A DNA stretch of 64,000 nt from Candidatus Bipolaricaulota bacterium (GTDB taxonomy: Bacteria > Patescibacteriota > Patescibacteriia > UBA11705 > DATKZF01). The translations under genes and the position numbers were made by a program. The notes under the pieces are model-generated. The model was not told where the DNA came from and did not search any database. It saw only the letters and a program-made list of their open reading frames with translations. Of this stretch, positions 7,277 through 12,832 are shown piece by piece. The DNA is taken from positions 423,089-487,088 of the forward strand of contig DATKZF010000003.1 of NCBI GenBank assembly GCA_035528115.1. Direction: 5' to 3'. The stretch's first letter is position 1, and each line of letters starts with the position of its first letter.

Positions 7277-9142
7277 ATGGCAAAGGAAGAGAAAGAAAAA
7301 AAGAATTTTAAAAATCCGGGTCGGTTGTTTTTCGTGGCGGCCGGCGTTTTTTTGTTTGGCGCCTTGGCTTTTGCGTTCGTTTTTACTTATCAAAAATCCC
7401 ATGAGGGCAAGATATATGATAGAGTGTGGGTCGGTGAAACGGAATTATCCAAAGCCACCATTGATTTGGCCAAACTGGCGATGAGCAAGGAATTCAATGA
7501 TAAGTACGATCAGGGCTTTGTTTTTGTTTACGGCGATAAACGAGAAAAAACATTAAACGACTATGAGGTGCTTTTGGGCGTGGAGGCGCAAATGGCCGCG
7601 CCTGATTTTGAAAAAACGGCGCAGGACGCCTTTGGAGTCGGACGTTCGGGCAATGTGTTGATTGATTTGAAGGATCAATTGTTCGGTTTGATTTTCGGGA
7701 AAAGGATAGACTTGTCGTTTTCTTTGAACCGCGATTATTTAATCGATCAGCTCAAAGAGGCTTTCGGAGAATTCGAGGACAATGCCAGATCGGCTGAAAT
7801 CGAGGTGTCCGTGAAGTCGAAAGTCAATAAAGAAATGGAAGTGAAAATAATTCCCGAAAAAGAAGGCGTGGGTTTTGATTACGAAAAGTACGCGGACATG
7901 CTGGCGGATAAAATAACGAGATTGGACAATAGCGACATTTCGATGAAACTGGAAAAGCAATCTCCGGCCATCAAAGCGGCCGATGCCGGCGGCATTGCGC
8001 AAAAAACAACGGAGTTGGTGGCGGACAATGACGAGATAAACTTTGTTTTTGAAGATCAAAAATGGACGGCGTCCTGGTATGATTACGTCTCTTGGTTGGC
8101 CTTGGACAAAGCTGATAAAAACGAAGTGATTTTGACTTTCGATAAAACGAAATTTGAGGAATTTCTTCAGCCCATAATCAAGGAAATTAATATCGCGCCA
8201 AAGAACGCCAGATTTGAATTGGCGGACGGCAAAGTGACCGAGTTTCAATTGAGCAAAAACGGCAGAGAGATAAATATTGATCAAACATTCGATGGATTAA
8301 TCAATCTGTTTTTCAAGTCCGGAGAAAATGAAATAAAATTGGCGGTTGAAGAAAAATTGCCTGATGTGAATACGGAAAACATCGCGGACATGGGCATCAG
8401 AGAATTGATCGGATCGGGCACATCCAATTTCAGCGGCAGTCCGGCAAACAGAAGATATAACATTAAAATCGGTTCGAATTCATTGCATGGAATATTGATA
8501 AAGCCGGGCGAAGAATTTTCTTTGGTGAAAAATCTCGGCAGAATCGACGGCAGCACCGGTTATTTGCCCGAGCTGGTGATTCGAGGCAATAAGACCGTGC
8601 CGGAATTTGGCGGCGGTTTGTGCCAAGTGGCCACAACTATGTTTCGCGCGGCGATTGACACCGGTTTGCCGGTTACGGAAAGAAAACCGCATTCATACAG
8701 AGTTTCATATTACGAGCCGGCCGGAACAGACGCCACCATTTACGATCCCAGTCCTGATCTGAAATTCATCAATGACACGGGACAGTATATTTTAATTCAA
8801 ACCGCAATTTCCGGAGATACTTTGACCTATGAATTTTGGGGCACGTTCGATGGCAGAACAGTGGAAGTCACTGAGCCTAAAATTTTTAATATTACCTATC
8901 CCGGTCCGACCAAGGAAATCGAATCCCCGGATCTGGCTCCCGGAGTGAGAAAATGCACGGAGCGGGCGCACAATGGAGCGGACGCGGTTTTCTACAGAAT
9001 CATCACCCCTGCTTCGGGGGACGCAATCAATGAAACTTGGTCCAGTACTTATCGGCCATGGCAGGCGGTGTGCTTGGTCGGGCCCAGCGAAGCTCCGGTA
9101 GAAGAAAGTTCCAGTGATGCCCCGGTGACCCCTGAAAATTAA
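7277..9142 (+). CDS. VanW-domain protein with N-terminal membrane anchor
   Basis: 621 aa; N-terminal TM (LFFVAAGVFLFGALAFAFVF); C-terminal VanW-like region GGGLCQVATTMFRAAIDTGLPVTERKPHSYRVSYYEP. Confidence 0.7.
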   Translation: MAKEEKEKKNFKNPGRLFFVAAGVFLFGALAFAFVFTYQKSHEGKIYDRVWVGETELSKATIDLAKLAMSKEFNDKYDQGFVFVYGDKREKTLNDYEVLLGVEAQMAAPDFEKTAQDAFGVGRSGNVLIDLKDQLFGLIFGKRIDLSFSLNRDYLIDQLKEAFGEFEDNARSAEIEVSVKSKVNKEMEVKIIPEKEGVGFDYEKYADMLADKITRLDNSDISMKLEKQSPAIKAADAGGIAQKTTELVADNDEINFVFEDQKWTASWYDYVSWLALDKADKNEVILTFDKTKFEEFLQPIIKEINIAPKNARFELADGKVTEFQLSKNGREINIDQTFDGLINLFFKSGENEIKLAVEEKLPDVNTENIADMGIRELIGSGTSNFSGSPANRRYNIKIGSNSLHGILIKPGEEFSLVKNLGRIDGSTGYLPELVIRGNKTVPEFGGGLCQVATTMFRAAIDTGLPVTERKPHSYRVSYYEPAGTDATIYDPSPDLKFINDTGQYILIQTAISGDTLTYEFWGTFDGRTVEVTEPKIFNITYPGPTKEIESPDLAPGVRKCTERAHNGADAVFYRIITPASGDAINETWSSTYRPWQAVCLVGPSEAPVEESSSDAPVTPEN

Positions 9143-9145
9143 TTG

Positions 9146-9175
9146 ATAAAAAAAGACGCGCCATAAGGCGCGTTT
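9146..9175 (+). terminator. Rho-independent terminator after vanW-like gene
   Basis: aaaaaagacgcgccataaggcgcgtttt: A-tract, GC stem gacgcgcc/ggcgcgtc, T-tract. Confidence 0.6.
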
Positions 9176-9186
9176 TATATTTAAAA

Positions 9187-9297
9187 CGTCCTCAAACGGA
9201 CAGACAAGAAATTTTTATCCTGGTCGAATCTAGCCGAAGCCTGATTTGACCATAAATAAAAACCCCATGCTTGTCGTGTCTGTCCGTTTGAGGACGC
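9187..9297. repeat. Long inverted repeat (about 22-bp arms, about 60-nt loop) in the convergent vanW-clpP gap
   Basis: cgtcctcaaacggacagacaag ... cttgtcgtgtctgtccgtttgaggacg. Confidence 0.5.
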
Positions 9298-9346
9298 TTT
9301 TGGGCCGACATAATAGTATAGCCTATTTGAAAAGGATTGTCAATGG

Positions 9347-9919
9347 CTAGAATATCTTATCGATTAATCCGTAATCTTTCGCTTCTTGCGGGCTCATAAA
9401 ATTGTCTCTATCAGAGTCTTTTTCAACCGTTGCTACGGGTTGCCCCGTGTGCTTCGATAAAATCTCGTTTAGACGATCTTTGATTTTTAATATCCGTTCC
9501 GCTCTGATTTTAATGTCGGAAGCTTGGCCCTCGGCGCCGCCCATGACTTGATGAATCAGTATTTCGGAATTGGGCAGAGAAAATCTTTTGTCTTTGGCTC
9601 CGGCAGCCAAAAGCACGGCCCCCATGCTGGCGGCCAGGCCGATGCAAATAGTGGATACATCGGGTTTTATGTACTGCATGGTGTCATAAATCGCCATGCC
9701 GGCAGTGACAGAACCGCCGGGACTATTGATATATAATTTGATATCTTTTTTGGGATCTTCGCTTTCCAGGAACAATAATTGAGCGATTACGGTGTTGGCT
9801 ACATTATCGTCAATGGTTGAACCCAAAAAAATTATGCGTTCTTTGAGCAATCTTGAATAAATATCATAAGCTCTTTCGCCGAAATTGGTTTTTTCAATGA
9901 CTGTTGGTATCAAATTCAT
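9347..9919 (-). CDS. clpP: ATP-dependent Clp protease proteolytic subunit
   Basis: 190 aa; catalytic triad context [15 protein letters not shown] (Ser), IHQVMGG (His), [11 protein letters not shown] (Asp). Confidence 0.9.
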
Positions 9920-10311
9920 AAATTACAAATAGTTAATTCTATTTAGGACAAGCTAGGTTTAGGTTTAACTGTTTTGTTACAAATCGTTGCTTCTAATTAA
10001 CTTGCCTTTGCCTAGAAATTGCGAATAATTAATTCTATTAGGACAGGCTTGGTTTAGGTCTAATTGTTGCTACAGATTGCCGGCGCCCGATAGCTTTGCT
10101 GGGCGATGAAAATTGCGGATAAATATTCAATAGCGTTTTCAACTTGTGATTATTACATTTTAAAAAATTATTGTCAATCAGTCAAAGTTCTGGTTGTGTG
10201 GAAGTGTCTTATTTTAGCACAAATTATCCACAATTTACTAACAATCGCTAATATTTGGCTGAAATGCTGTTGAATATGGGACAGATCGGTAAAGACGGTT
10301 TCTGGGCTCCG

Positions 10312-10340
10312 TTGACAGGTTGTGATATATATGCTATGAT
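10312..10340 (+). promoter_or_regulatory. Consensus sigma70-type promoter (TTGACA-17 bp-TATGAT)
   Basis: TTGACA at 10312-10317, 17-nt spacer, TATGAT at 10335-10340; a second TATAAT follows at 10342-10347. Confidence 0.5.
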
Positions 10341-10347
10341 ATATAAT

Positions 10348-10594
10348 CAATATCATTTCGCGTGGTTAATAAAAAGATATAGGGGAGAGAGTGGAGGGCA
10401 GAATTTATCAATATTGGCCTTGGACCACAATTACCTCTATATCTTTTTGTTAACCAAGAGCCCGCCTTTAGTCGGTAATACATGGAAAAGGCGTTATTCT
10501 TTCAAAAACTTTCAAGTGAGTAGATAGGTATCAATTTCTCTCTCCTCATATCTTTTAGGAGGTCCAGCTTATCTACTCGCTTGAAGGTTTTTTT
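10348..10594 (+). ncRNA. Candidate structured small RNA or long leader (about 245 nt) with promoter and terminator, upstream of ftsK
   Basis: No ORF with a start downstream of the promoter except a 13-codon MEKALFFQKLSSE. The 5' segment ggttaataaaaagatataggggagagag can pair with either cctctatatctttttgttaacc (10432-10453) or ctctctcctcatatctttt (10545-10563). The unit ends in a hairpin caagtgagtagataggt...agcttatctactcgcttg followed by ggttttttt. Confidence 0.35.
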
Positions 10595-10651
10595 AATCTT
10601 TATCAGTTAAACAAAATGTGTTAGAATACAAAAGACGATAAAATATTTCCC

Positions 10652-12832
10652 ATGGCCAGAAGAAAAAGAAAAAAAATAAAAGAAGAGCCCGTTCGCGAAA
10701 AAGAACTTAGCCCCGAGGCAAAAAAGGGGATAGTGGTGGTTTTTATATTCGCCGTTGGCGTGCTTTCCTTTTTGAGCCTGTTGCAAATGGCGGGCAGAAT
10801 AGGGATTTTTATTGATTCCGCTTTAAGCATATTCATCGGTTGGACCAAATACGCCTTTCCCATTTTAATGATCATCTACGCTTATCTTCTGTTTCGAGAT
10901 GAGCGATATCAAATAACCAAAGCCAAATATGTTGGCTTTTTATTTTTTGTTTTGAGCTTTAACGCGCTTTTACATATTTCCTATGCCGCGAGTGAGGCGC
11001 TCGAAATGTCGGCCAGCGGCCTTGGCGGCGGATTCCTGGGATTGGTTTTAAGTTACCCGTTGCAATTTGTGATGGGAAAAATCGCGACGATTGTAATTTT
11101 ATTGGCATTGCTTTTGATCAGCTTGCTTTTAATGTTCAATACTTCCATAAAAAATCTTGTTTTCGGAAATTCTCGATTGGCGTTTTTAAAGCGCCCGTTC
11201 GGAGTGTTATTCGCTCGAAAAGAAGATGAATCATCTGAAGAAGAATCGGAAACGGAGACGGTTGAAAAAGCGACGCAGGAGTCTTCTATTGAAAATGAAG
11301 AACAGGATGAAAAGAAGGTGGCAAAGGAATTAAACGAGTCCGAGGAAACCGCCGTTCAATTTCCCAACAAAGGAATTAAGATTGATTTGCCCCTGACATT
11401 ATTGAATAAAAAAACGAGCAAGCCGACCAGCGGCGACACTAAGGTCGGCATGGAAAAAATACAAAAAACTTTGGAGAATTTCGGTATTGACGTGCAAATG
11501 GAAGGAGTAAGCATCGGACCGACCGTTACTCAGTACACGTTCAAGCCGGCGGAAGGAGTGAAATTATCACGCATTACCGCTTTGAATAATGATTTGGCTT
11601 TGGCGCTGGCCGCCCATCCGCTGAGAATCGAGGCTCCGATACCTGGCAAGTCGCTGGTGGGTATTGAAGTCCCCAATAAGCAAGCGGCCACCGTATGTTT
11701 GCGTGAATTACTGGAAGCTCCGGAATTTAAAACGAGAAAATCCAATTTGGCCCTGACTTTGGGCAAAGACGTTTCGGGCAAGACTTGGGTTTATCCTTTG
11801 GAAAAAATGCCTCATTTGCTGGTGGCCGGCGCGACCGGCTCGGGCAAAAGCGTTTGTTTGAACACCATGATTATCAGTTTGCTTTATCAAAATAATCCGG
11901 ATGATTTGCGCATGATCTTGGTCGATCCCAAGAGAGTGGAGTTCCCCGTATATAACGGCATCCCTCATTTATTATCCCCGGTTATAACGGATGTCACCAA
12001 GACCGTGAATTCACTGCGTTGGGCCATTTCGGAAATGGATAGAAGATATGAGATGCTCGCCAAGAGCAATAAGCGAAATATCGAAGGTTATAACCAAAGC
12101 AACCCGGAAGAAAAATTGCCGTATTTGCTTATTGTGATAGATGAATTGGCGGATTTGATGATTTCCGCCTCGTCGGAAATCGAATCGTCAATCATCAGGT
12201 TGACGCAAATGGCCAGAGCCATCGGCATTCATTTGATCGTGGCCACGCAAAGGCCGTCGGTCGATGTCATTACCGGTTTGATCAAAGCCAATATTCCTGC
12301 CAGAATCGCTTTTAGCGTGGCTTCGCAGACCGATTCTCGAACCATACTTGATTCGTCCGGAGCCGAGAAGTTGCTGGGCAAAGGCGACATGCTTTTTCAA
12401 ACCGCGGAGCTGAGCAAGCCGCGCAGGATCCAAGGAGCCTTTGTCGGAGATGACGAAATAAAGAGAGTGGTTGATTTTCTTAAAGAAGCCAGCGGCGACC
12501 CGGAATATAACGAGTCCGTTACGGAAAAAAACAAAGGAGTTCATACCAGTTTTGATTATAATAATGACGATGGTGATAGCGATGAATTATATGATGACGC
12601 CGTGGAAATAGTCGCTCGCGCGGGCAAAGCCTCCGCCTCCTTGCTTCAACGCCGGCTACGCGTGGGTTATGCCAGAGCGGCTCGTTTGATTGATTTGCTG
12701 GAAGACAATGGCGTGGTCGGCCCGGCTGACGGAGCTCGGCCGCGCGAAGTATTGATGTCACTCGACAAAATGTCCCAAGGAGACGCTCATGAAGCGGCGC
12801 CGACGGAAGATGATGAAGAAAATGAAGAATAG
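10652..12832 (+). CDS. ftsK: DNA translocase FtsK/SpoIIIE
   Basis: 726 aa; N-terminal TM helices, acidic linker, motor domain with Walker A GATGSGKS, and C-terminal gamma winged-helix region LYDDAVEIVARAGKASASLLQRRLRVGYARAARLIDLLE. Confidence 0.9.
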   Translation: MARRKRKKIKEEPVREKELSPEAKKGIVVVFIFAVGVLSFLSLLQMAGRIGIFIDSALSIFIGWTKYAFPILMIIYAYLLFRDERYQITKAKYVGFLFFVLSFNALLHISYAASEALEMSASGLGGGFLGLVLSYPLQFVMGKIATIVILLALLLISLLLMFNTSIKNLVFGNSRLAFLKRPFGVLFARKEDESSEEESETETVEKATQESSIENEEQDEKKVAKELNESEETAVQFPNKGIKIDLPLTLLNKKTSKPTSGDTKVGMEKIQKTLENFGIDVQMEGVSIGPTVTQYTFKPAEGVKLSRITALNNDLALALAAHPLRIEAPIPGKSLVGIEVPNKQAATVCLRELLEAPEFKTRKSNLALTLGKDVSGKTWVYPLEKMPHLLVAGATGSGKSVCLNTMIISLLYQNNPDDLRMILVDPKRVEFPVYNGIPHLLSPVITDVTKTVNSLRWAISEMDRRYEMLAKSNKRNIEGYNQSNPEEKLPYLLIVIDELADLMISASSEIESSIIRLTQMARAIGIHLIVATQRPSVDVITGLIKANIPARIAFSVASQTDSRTILDSSGAEKLLGKGDMLFQTAELSKPRRIQGAFVGDDEIKRVVDFLKEASGDPEYNESVTEKNKGVHTSFDYNNDDGDSDELYDDAVEIVARAGKASASLLQRRLRVGYARAARLIDLLEDNGVVGPADGARPREVLMSLDKMSQGDAHEAAPTEDDEENEE

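What the first reader, a model, noticed from the sequence alone, without database searches (positions are those of the whole stretch)
10312..10594. Promoter-to-terminator unit without a credible ORF upstream of ftsK: candidate sRNA (6S-like?) or regulatory leader
A textbook TTGACA-17-TATGAT promoter is followed by about 245 nt with no ORF beyond a 13-codon peptide. The unit ends in a branched hairpin plus T-tract about 55 nt before the ftsK ATG. The 5' segment (ggttaataaaaagatataggggagagag) can pair with two mutually exclusive downstream partners (10432-10453 or 10545-10563). This suggests either a long closing helix, as in 6S RNA, or an attenuator-type switch.
Basis: seen in the sequence. Interest (0 to 1): 0.55.

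Follow-up and report, generated by a model that had tools for sequence, protein, structure and literature searches.

The report
New modular noncoding RNA before ftsK
The stretch upstream of ftsK is a separate, conserved gene for a folded noncoding RNA of an undescribed family, found so far only in one clade of ultra-small (Patescibacteria/CPR) bacteria; it is neither a 6S RNA nor a leader of ftsK.

Summary
A near-consensus promoter (10312-10340) drives about 247 nt with no conserved ORF. The unit ends in a long branched hairpin plus a T7 run (10588-10594), 55 nt before ftsK.

The fold is far stronger than chance (z = -9.3). The same unit sits upstream of ftsK in 15 distinct Patescibacteria genomes.

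It is modular:
- One to four 'H1' hairpins carry the invariant 5' strand GAGGAGAGAG.
- One 3' 'H3' hairpin has an internal loop starting with the invariant complement UCUCUCUCCUC.

Both hairpins are supported by compensatory changes. In H3, 13 of 23 pairs show them; in H1, 7 of 21.

No Rfam family matches, and the structure is not a 6S-type rod. ftsK keeps its own conserved extended -10 promoter downstream of the RNA's terminator(s), which argues against an attenuator.

Best reading: a stand-alone structured ncRNA of a new family, whose purine bulge and pyrimidine loop probably pair over a long range. That pairing is inferred from complementarity, because both motifs are invariant and covariation cannot test it. 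The function is unknown.

A second conserved unknown ncRNA gene lies on the other side of clpP.

The parts
10312..10340 (+). Promoter of the RNA: -35 TTGACA (10312-10317), 17-nt spacer with TG, -10 TATGAT (10335-10340). Predicted start is near 10347.
   Evidence: 11 of 12 matches, TG. The TTGACA-17-TG-TATAAT/TATACT arrangement is kept in all 15 homologous loci.
10363..10456 (+). H1 module. It is a long hairpin with a lower stem, an AGAGG/CCUCU-type helix, a bulged 5' strand AGAGAG, a GUGG/CCAC helix, an AGGGC/GCCUU helix and an AU-rich loop.
   Evidence: I1. CM R2 scores 81.8 bits on + versus 34.9 on -. On 10 modules, 92.8% of cells are paired and 7 of 21 pairs show compensatory changes.
10382..10391 (+). 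Purine motif GGGGAGAGAG (GAGGAGAGAG in relatives). Its first 4 nt are paired inside H1; AGAGAG is bulged opposite a linker of variable length and sequence.
   Evidence: Invariant in alignments A3 and A8. The AGAGA part has predicted unpaired probability 0.65 here and up to 0.99 in relatives.
10463..10493 (+). H2, a small hairpin inserted only in this genome. It contains the start of the 13-codon ORF.
   Evidence: It aligns to gaps in the relatives.
10504..10592 (+). H3 module. A 23-26 bp stem (GUGAGUAGAUAGG / CUUAUCUACUCGC plus a variable base) encloses an internal loop and an inner hairpin. In this genome its 3' arm runs into the U-tract, so H3 is also the terminator hairpin.
   Evidence: I2. 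CM R1 scores 71.8 bits on + versus 42.7 on -. On 13 sequences, 93.3% of cells are paired, 13 of 23 pairs are compensatory, and the covariation score is 0.569 against 0.265 for shuffles and at most 0.148 for slid controls.
10537..10547 (+). Pyrimidine motif TCTCTCTCCTC on the 5' side of the H3 internal loop. It is the exact complement of the H1 purine motif.
   Evidence: UCUCUCUCC is present in all 15 RNAs. The core 10 pairs with the H1 motif are about 97% paired but invariant.
10557..10562 (+). AGGAGG, which pairs with CUCCU of the pyrimidine motif to form the inner hairpin of H3. It is found only in the closer relatives.
   Evidence: It is replaced by an unrelated inner hairpin in L090, L092, L140, L150, L002, L003 and L151.
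10588..10594 (+). T7 run, the end of the RNA unit.
10600..10627 (+). ftsK's own promoter: TTATCA-16-(TG)TAGAAT. This feature is not part of the RNA.
   Evidence: TGnTAnAAT lies 33-101 nt before the ftsK ATG in all 15 loci.
10652..12832 (+). ftsK, the downstream neighbour. It is context, not part of the RNA.
   Evidence: Pfam domains FtsK_4TM, alpha, FtsK_SpoIIIE and gamma.

Best explanation
The region 10312-10594 is a stand-alone gene for a structured noncoding RNA of about 247 nt. It belongs to an undescribed family restricted, as far as sampled, to a Falkowbacteria-related clade of Patescibacteria.

**Shown.**
- It has its own very strong promoter (perfect -35, extended -10) and its own terminator.
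- It has no conserved ORF.
- It keeps a fixed position and orientation upstream of ftsK.
- It is built from two covariation-supported modules.
- The H1 module occurs in 1-4 copies. It is a hairpin whose 5' strand carries GAGGAGAGAG, half in a helix and half bulged.
- The single 3' H3 module is a long stem that displays UCUCUCUCCUC on the 5' side of an internal loop.

**Inferred.**
- The bulged AGAGAG(A) of the first H1 and the UCUCUCU of H3 pair with each other. This gives 9-13 bp in all members and 19 bp here.
- That pairing would form a long-range loop-loop helix that ties the 5' and 3' modules into one compact fold, with variable domains in between (H2 here, extra H1 copies elsewhere).

**Speculative.**
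- The RNA acts in trans as an abundant scaffold or decoy for a protein or RNA that recognises the purine or pyrimidine motifs.
- It does not act in cis on ftsK.
For: **Independent gene.**
- Promoter.
- Terminator.
- Extra canonical terminators in relatives.
- ftsK-proximal extended -10 conserved in 15 of 15 loci.

**No coding potential.**

**Structure.**
- Fold z = -9.27.
- H3 stem: 13 of 23 pairs compensatory, 93.3% paired, 0 of 500 shuffles reach the observed score.
- H1: 7 of 21 pairs compensatory, 92.8% paired.

**Strand.**
- About 39 G-U cells in H3.
- CM scores of 72 versus 43 bits and 82 versus 35 bits for + versus -.

**Conservation and synteny.** 15 distinct loci with FtsK at 58-77% identity all carry it.

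**Long-range pairing.**
- Both motifs are invariant while their flanks diverge. The core is 10 bp and about 97% paired.
- Duplex energies are -17 to -26.5 kcal/mol in every member.
- The bulge opposite AGAGAG varies in length and sequence. This indicates the 5' strand is conserved for something other than the local motif.
- The bulge and loop are predicted largely unpaired.
- The position flanking the core co-varies: C:G in L081, L105 and L084; U:A or U:G in 7 others (pair 7:40).
- In multi-H1 RNAs, the first one or two H1 copies keep the perfect motif while later copies decay.

**Not an SD-related element.** Only about 4 of 48 genes in the window have GGAG upstream of their start.
Against: **The long-range pairing is not demonstrated.**
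- Both partners are invariant.
- The formal covariation score equals the shuffled controls: 0.089 versus 0.081, with 130 of 500 shuffles as high.
- Cognate duplexes are barely better than non-cognate ones: -23.1 versus -21.6 kcal/mol.
- The single covarying position may be one evolutionary event.
- RNAs with 3-4 H1 copies and one H3 do not fit a simple 1:1 pairing.

**Other gaps.**
- No expression data were available.
- The function is unknown.
- The family is small, with 15 distinct sequences. An exact-pattern metagenome scan added only 2 new members.
- Read-through from the RNA into ftsK cannot be excluded.
Confidence: 0.6

Rival explanations
1. Trans-acting base-pairing sRNA. The single-stranded UCUCUCUCCUC loop of H3 is a seed that pairs with purine-rich sites in target mRNAs. 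The H1 purine motif is an internal mimic that masks the seed (auto-inhibition).
For: An invariant single-stranded pyrimidine motif is displayed in a loop. An internal complement is present in every member.
Against: - The genome barely uses SD sequences, so there is no obvious class of GGAG-type targets.
- GAGGAGAGAG with up to 1 mismatch occurs no more often than chance in 64 kb: 3 observed versus 1.45 expected, and two of the three are the RNA itself.
- The 5' regions of ftsK and clpP rank 36th and 29th of 48 for pairing with the loop.
- Only 64 kb of the genome could be examined.
Confidence: 0.15
2. Protein-sequestering or scaffold RNA of the CsrB/RsmZ or CrcZ type. Each H1 is a binding site for an RNA-binding protein that recognises the GGA- and AG-rich bulge, and copy number sets capacity.
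For: - The number (1-4) of repeated hairpins with a conserved purine motif varies between members.
- The promoter is very strong and the gene has a terminator.
- From my own knowledge: CsrA binds GGA motifs, and B. subtilis Hfq binds (AG)n repeats.
Against: - The GGA lies largely inside a helix rather than in apical loops.
- Most members have only one H1.
- Later H1 copies lose the motif.
- No CsrB/Rsm model matches.
- This reading does not explain the invariant complementary H3 loop.
- The presence of CsrA or Hfq in these genomes was not tested.
Confidence: 0.15
3. Cis-acting leader or attenuator of ftsK. Alternative pairing of the 5' segment controls termination at H3 and hence read-through into ftsK.
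For: - Linkage and co-orientation with ftsK are fixed in 15 of 15 loci, even where clpP is no longer adjacent.
- Mutually exclusive pairings exist.
- In this genome H3 is the only terminator.
Against: - ftsK has its own conserved extended -10 in all loci.
- Relatives carry a second canonical terminator after H3.
- The alternative partner is the H3 loop, so the terminator stem is not disrupted.
- No riboswitch or leader model matches.
Confidence: 0.08
4. A divergent 6S RNA that mimics an open promoter and sequesters RNA polymerase.
For: A strong housekeeping-type promoter, a suitable size in this genome (about 247 nt), and no 6S detected in the window.
Against: - No 6S hit even at E <= 10.
- Covariation supports independent hairpins, not a closing stem, central bubble and terminal stem.
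- Length ranges from about 200 to about 800 nt.
Confidence: 0.02
5. Not an RNA gene: a DNA-level inverted repeat (mobile element, inverton or protein-binding site) or a small protein-coding gene.
For: Long inverted repeats are present, and a 90-codon TTG ORF overlaps the region.
Against: - There is a single copy in the window, with fixed synteny over FtsK identities of 58-77%.
- G-U pairs and the CM strand asymmetry point to a + strand RNA.
- The ORF is not conserved and starts upstream of the promoter.
- There are no viral-contig matches.
Confidence: 0.02

Closest known systems
6S RNA (Rfam RF00013 and relatives)
   Same: A stand-alone, strongly transcribed, highly structured bacterial ncRNA of a few hundred nt with no ORF.
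   Different: There is no CM match. The architecture is a row of covarying hairpins, not one rod with a central bubble. Module number and length are variable. Invariant complementary purine and pyrimidine motifs have no counterpart in 6S.
CsrB/RsmX/Y/Z and CrcZ protein-sponge sRNAs
   Same: Modular RNAs made of repeated hairpins that carry a short conserved purine-containing motif. Copy number varies between species. Each is an independent gene with its own promoter and terminator.
   Different: The motif here sits in a helix and bulge rather than in apical loops. There are only 1-4 copies. A unique 3' module carries the exact complement of the motif. There is no sequence or CM similarity, and no partner protein is known.
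Lineage-restricted structured RNAs of unknown function (OLE, ROOL, GOLLD, raiA, HEARO; recalled from the literature, all in Rfam)
   Same: Covariation-supported, lineage-restricted structure, including long-range or loop-loop contacts, with no known function at discovery.
   Different: There is no CM match to any of them. This RNA is smaller in most members, is built from a repeated module, and is tied to ftsK rather than to phage, tRNA or membrane-protein genes.
C/U-rich-seed sRNAs such as RsaE/RoxS (from my own knowledge)
   Same: A pyrimidine-rich, unpaired conserved motif is displayed in a loop and could pair with purine-rich mRNA sites.
   Different: Here the genome hardly uses SD sequences. 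The best complement is inside the same RNA. No homology was found.

Membership tests
6S RNA | Match to the Rfam 6S covariance models | tested here: not met
   No 6S hit at gathering threshold in the window. None at E <= 10 in 9850-10750 or in the long L003 homologue.
6S RNA | A single extended rod: closing stem, large two-sided central bubble, terminal stem | tested here: not met
   The MFE and consensus folds give separate hairpins H1 and H3 (plus H2 in the window). H1 and H3 are each supported by compensatory changes.
6S RNA | Roughly constant length (about 150-200 nt) | tested here: not met
   Homologues span about 200 to about 800 nt with 1-4 H1 modules.
6S RNA | Binds the sigma-70 RNA polymerase holoenzyme and templates pRNA synthesis | not testable with these tools
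   Needs biochemistry.
Transcription attenuator / riboswitch leader of ftsK | No promoter between the element and the regulated ORF | tested here: not met
   TTATCA-16-(TG)TAGAAT lies at 10600-10627. TGnTAnAAT lies 33-101 nt before the ATG in 15 of 15 loci.
Transcription attenuator / riboswitch leader of ftsK | Alternative pairing that competes with the terminator stem | tested here: not met
   The second partner (10538-10556) lies in the H3 loop, not its stem. Relatives have a further canonical terminator downstream.
Transcription attenuator / riboswitch leader of ftsK | Recognisable ligand, tRNA or protein-binding aptamer | tested here: not met
   No Rfam cis-regulatory family matches.
Transcription attenuator / riboswitch leader of ftsK | Conditional read-through transcripts | not testable with these tools
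   Needs RNA-seq or Northern blotting.
CsrB/Rsm-type sponge RNA | Many GGA motifs exposed in hairpin loops or single-stranded linkers | tested here: not met
   There are about three GGA sites (two in H1, one in H3). They lie largely in helices: GAGG has unpaired probability of about 0.
CsrB/Rsm-type sponge RNA | Partner protein (CsrA/RsmA) encoded in the genome | not tested
   Only 64 kb of the genome was available, and no search was made.
Stand-alone bacterial sRNA gene (generic kind) | Own promoter, own intrinsic terminator, no conserved ORF, conserved in related genomes | tested here: met
Stand-alone bacterial sRNA gene (generic kind) | Secondary structure supported by compensatory substitutions on the transcribed strand | tested here: met
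   H3, H1, and strand asymmetry.
Mobile repeat (MITE-like) / invertible DNA segment | Multiple dispersed copies or an adjacent recombinase, with variable location | tested here: not met
   There is one copy in 64 kb. The position between clpP and ftsK, or upstream of ftsK, is fixed in all loci.

The most novel reading that the evidence does not exclude
The invariant purine bulges (1-4 per molecule) and the single invariant pyrimidine loop may be intermolecular 'sticky' elements. In that case the RNA would self-assemble into dimers or higher-order RNA-only complexes, as recently seen for other ornate bacterial RNAs. Alternatively it could titrate an unknown CU-rich or GA-rich cellular RNA. Either way, it would form a new kind of abundant RNA scaffold in CPR bacteria, possibly coupled to cell division through its fixed linkage to ftsK.
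Probability: 0.1. Interest if true: 0.8.

Novelty: new variant of a known kind. Interest (0 to 1): 0.58.

Why it matters
CPR/Patescibacteria make up a large share of bacterial diversity, yet almost nothing is known about their regulatory or structural RNAs. This locus yields a covariation-supported ncRNA family with no Rfam counterpart.

Its design is unusual. A repeatable hairpin module carries an invariant purine motif, and a single module carries its exact complement. The gene is driven by a near-perfect promoter and is fixed next to ftsK.

Together with the second unknown ncRNA on the other side of clpP, it gives concrete, testable RNA genes in organisms with tiny genomes. Retention of about 250-800 nt of non-coding sequence in such genomes implies an important function.

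Tried and rejected
- **Rfam.** I ran the gathering threshold on the whole window, then E <= 10 on 9850-10750, on L003 1900-2900 and on 9100-9360. Only chance-level hits came back.
- **Metagenome scan.** The exact-pattern scan (TCTCTCTCCTC..AGGAGG..TCTNCTC) returned 45 stretches. Only 4 were true members by CM, and 2 of those were new. The pattern was too narrow to reveal the family's full breadth.
- **Viral contigs.** Two patterns gave no true hit.
- **Other Patescibacteria ftsK loci.** L004-L020, L022, L030, L033 and L044 have no H1 or H3 within 3 kb.
- **Trans targets.** The CU loop was tested against the 5' regions of 48 window genes and against the whole window. ftsK and clpP are not favoured, and there is no enrichment.
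- **SD / anti-SD reading of AGGAGG and CCUCU.** Rejected, because this genome hardly uses SD sequences and AGGAGG is absent from the more distant members.
- **Covariation tests of the H1:H3 helix.** The cognate versus non-cognate duplex test and the formal pair count were both uninformative, because both motifs are invariant.
- **Small ORFs.** Not conserved.
- **Literature.** Four full-text searches found no description of such an RNA.
- **My own error.** My first structure string for H1 had the middle helix off by one column. It was corrected.

Full report
**Context.** The window comes from a Patescibacteria (CPR) genome. Its FtsK is identical to a protein NCBI labels 'Candidatus Bipolaricaulota', but the closest relatives at 58-77% identity are Patescibacteria, Falkowbacteria and Parcubacteria MAGs. 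The local gene order is hsp20, vanW (7277-9142, +), clpP (9347-9919, -), a 732-nt intergenic region, ftsK (10652-12832, +), a RodZ-like HTH gene and recA.

**Checking the observation.**
- The promoter TTGACA-17-TATGAT at 10312-10340 is real. It matches 11 of 12 consensus positions and has a TG extension.
- Downstream lies about 247 nt with no credible ORF.
  - The 13-codon ATG ORF (10482-10523) starts inside a hairpin that only this genome has.
  - A 90-codon TTG ORF (10255-10527) starts upstream of the promoter. Against relatives it gives only short, frame-inconsistent fragments.
- The unit ends in a long branched hairpin, with arms 10504-10526 and 10570-10592, followed by T7 at 10588-10594. 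That is 55 nt before the ftsK ATG.
- The RNA folds far better than chance: -93.3 kcal/mol against -53.6 +/- 4.3 for shuffles, z = -9.27.
- The fold has three hairpins: H1 (10363-10456), H2 (10463-10493) and H3 (10504-10592).
- The 5' strand of H1 (10372-10391) does have a second partner, CTCTCTCCTCATATCTTTT at 10538-10556, in the loop of H3. The pairing is 19 bp with one bulge at -26.5 kcal/mol.

**Relatives.** I collected syntenic loci in three ways: from FtsK homologues, by one DNA-pattern scan of metagenomes, and by covariance-model searches. This gave 15 distinct RNAs: window, L081, L105, L084, L086, L088, L089, L098, L090, L092, L140, L150, L002, L003 and L151.
- All lie immediately upstream of ftsK on the same strand. 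clpP is usually divergent on the other side. In L003/L139 and L151 another gene intervenes, but the RNA stays with ftsK.
- All 15 have a TTGACA-17-(TG)TATAAT/TATACT promoter.
- All 15 also have a separate extended -10 (TGnTAnAAT) 33-101 nt before the ftsK ATG, downstream of the RNA.
- In relatives, a canonical stem-loop plus T-run terminator lies between H3 and that promoter.
- The RNA is therefore insulated from ftsK. It is a gene of its own, not a leader.

**Architecture.** H2 is specific to this genome. The conserved parts are two module types.
- **H1.**
  - It has a covarying lower stem and a 5' strand reading GAGGAGAGAG.
  - Within that strand, AGAGG pairs with CCUCU, and AGAGAG is bulged opposite a linker of variable length and sequence.
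  - In the closer relatives a GUGG/CCAC helix, a GGGC/GCCC helix and an AU-rich loop follow.
  - On 10 modules, 92.8% of cells are paired, against at most 61% for slid controls. Seven of 21 pairs show compensatory changes.
- **H3.**
  - It is a 23-bp stem (GUGAGUAGAUAGG / CUUAUCUACUCAC on top of a freely covarying base).
  - The stem encloses an internal loop that begins with UCUCUCUCCUC, then an inner hairpin.
  - On 13 sequences, 93.3% of cells are paired and 13 of 23 pairs are compensatory.
  - The covariation score is 0.569, against 0.265 for shuffles (0 of 500 as high) and at most 0.148 for slid controls.
- **Strand.** About 39 G-U cells in H3, together with CM scores of 72 versus 43 bits (H3) and 82 versus 35 bits (H1) for + versus -, identify the + strand as the RNA.
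- **Number of H1 modules.**
  - One: window, L081, L105, L084, L086 and L089.
  - Two: L088, L098, L090, L092, L140 and L150.
  - Three to four: L002, L003 and L151, where the RNA reaches about 650-800 nt.
  - Later H1 copies tend to lose the exact motif, for example GAGGAGGGAG or GAGGCGAGAGG.
- **AGGAGG in H3.** It is present only in the closer relatives. Elsewhere an unrelated inner hairpin follows the pyrimidine motif.

**The two invariant motifs.**
- GAGGAGAGAG (H1) and UCUCUCUCCUC (H3 loop) are exact complements in every member. Duplex energies run from -17 to -26.5 kcal/mol.
- Predicted ensembles leave AGAGA of the bulge 0.6-0.99 unpaired in the compact RNAs. The first seven nt of the pyrimidine motif are 0.34-0.98 unpaired.
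- Several points suggest a long-range loop-loop helix joining the 5' and 3' modules:
  - the strand opposite the bulge is variable;
  - only the first H1 copies retain the motif;
  - the nucleotide flanking the core co-varies, being C:G in three RNAs and U:A or U:G in seven (pair 7:40).
- The evidence stops there.
  - The core never varies, and the formal covariation score equals shuffled controls (0.089 versus 0.081).
  - Cognate duplexes are only slightly better than non-cognate ones.
- I therefore treat the pairing as inferred, not shown.

**What it is not.**
- No Rfam family matches, whether 6S, riboswitches, leaders, Csr/Rsm or the large ornate RNAs.
- The covarying hairpins and the variable length contradict a 6S-type rod.
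- The attenuator idea fails for three reasons. ftsK has its own conserved promoter. Relatives have extra terminators. The alternative partner lies in the loop of H3, so it does not open the terminator stem.
- An SD/anti-SD reading is unlikely, because only about 4 of 48 genes in the window have GGAG upstream of their start.
- The pyrimidine loop has no preferred complement in the 5' regions of ftsK, clpP or other window genes.
- It is not mobile or viral. There is one copy in 64 kb, fixed synteny, and no IMG/VR match.
- Four literature searches found no description.

**Mechanism: commitment and uncertainty.**
- I am confident (about 0.85) that this is an independently transcribed, conserved, structured ncRNA of a family not in Rfam 15.
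- I consider it more likely than not (about 0.5) that the H1 bulge and the H3 loop pair, in cis, to close the molecule into a compact fold.
- The near-perfect promoter suggests high abundance and a trans-acting, housekeeping-type role as an RNP scaffold or decoy. That role is speculative.
- The variable number of H1 modules leaves open sponge-like or self-assembling behaviour.

**Also seen.** A second promoter-to-terminator ncRNA gene lies on the minus strand between vanW and clpP (9146-9343).
- It is a 47-bp hairpin with an invariant 10-nt 5' bulge, CGACAAGCAU.
- Fourteen of its pairs are compensatory across 11 sequences.
- It has no Rfam match and is present in the same genomes.
- Its stem (GGACAGACA...CAAG / CUUGUCUGUCC) resembles the H3 stem closely enough for the H3 model to hit it at 35.6 bits.

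Noticed in passing
window 9146-9343, minus strand: A second stand-alone ncRNA gene lies between the 3' ends of vanW and clpP. It has a promoter TTGACA-17-TATACT (9343..9315), a long hairpin at 9296..9187 and a terminator hairpin at 9172..9153 with a U-run. Across 11 homologues it forms a 47-pair rod with an invariant 10-nt 5' bulge CGACAAGCAU, and 14 pairs are compensatory. It has no Rfam match and occurs in the same genomes as the ftsK-upstream RNA. L088 carries a tandem duplicate.
   Followed up: partly
window 9187-9296 versus 10507-10589: The H3 covariance model also hits the second RNA: 35.6 bits in the window and 20-31 bits in L084, L086, L088, L098, L140 and L150. The stems share GRCAGACAAG/CUUGUCUGYC and the same layout of stem, 5'-side single-stranded motif and inner hairpin. 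The two may be paralogous scaffolds. This is unexplained.
   Followed up: no
window 9920-10125: About 95-nt direct repeats occur in two full copies plus a partial third (spacing 96 and 94 nt). They lie between the clpP start codon and its conserved promoter region and lengthen the clpP 5' UTR to about 220 nt. Relatives (L081, L084, L086) lack this insertion. Each copy repeats the sequence just upstream of the clpP ATG.
   Followed up: partly
window 10147-10250: The clpP upstream region is conserved across relatives. It has overlapping minus-strand promoters (TTGACA/TTGACT at 10177 and 10185). A direct repeat TGTCAATCAGTCAAAG (10172-10187) is reminiscent of a CtsR-type heptad operator but with different spacing. 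There is also a conserved box TTTTAGCACAAA (about 10212-10223).
   Followed up: no
whole window (48 predicted gene starts): Shine-Dalgarno motifs are almost absent: GGAG occurs upstream of only about 4 of 48 starts. This organism appears to initiate translation largely without SD pairing.
   Followed up: partly
window 10463-10493: Hairpin H2 is an insertion unique to this genome. It sits between the H1 and H3 modules and contains the start of the only ATG-initiated mini-ORF (13 codons).
   Followed up: yes
L081/L084/L086, clpP 5' UTR (e.g. L081 2505-2530): In relatives the clpP leader carries GGAGAG or GGAGGG 12-15 nt before the ATG. This is one of the rare SD-like sites and is a 6-nt complement of the H3 pyrimidine loop. 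The window's clpP leader lacks it, so I did not treat it as a conserved target.
   Followed up: partly
protein P0001 / loci L001, L006, L008: Public taxonomic labels of this genome and its close relatives ('Candidatus Bipolaricaulota', 'uncultured Gammaproteobacteria') disagree with the Patescibacteria affiliation of all close FtsK homologues and of the gene order. They are probably mislabelled MAGs.
   Followed up: no
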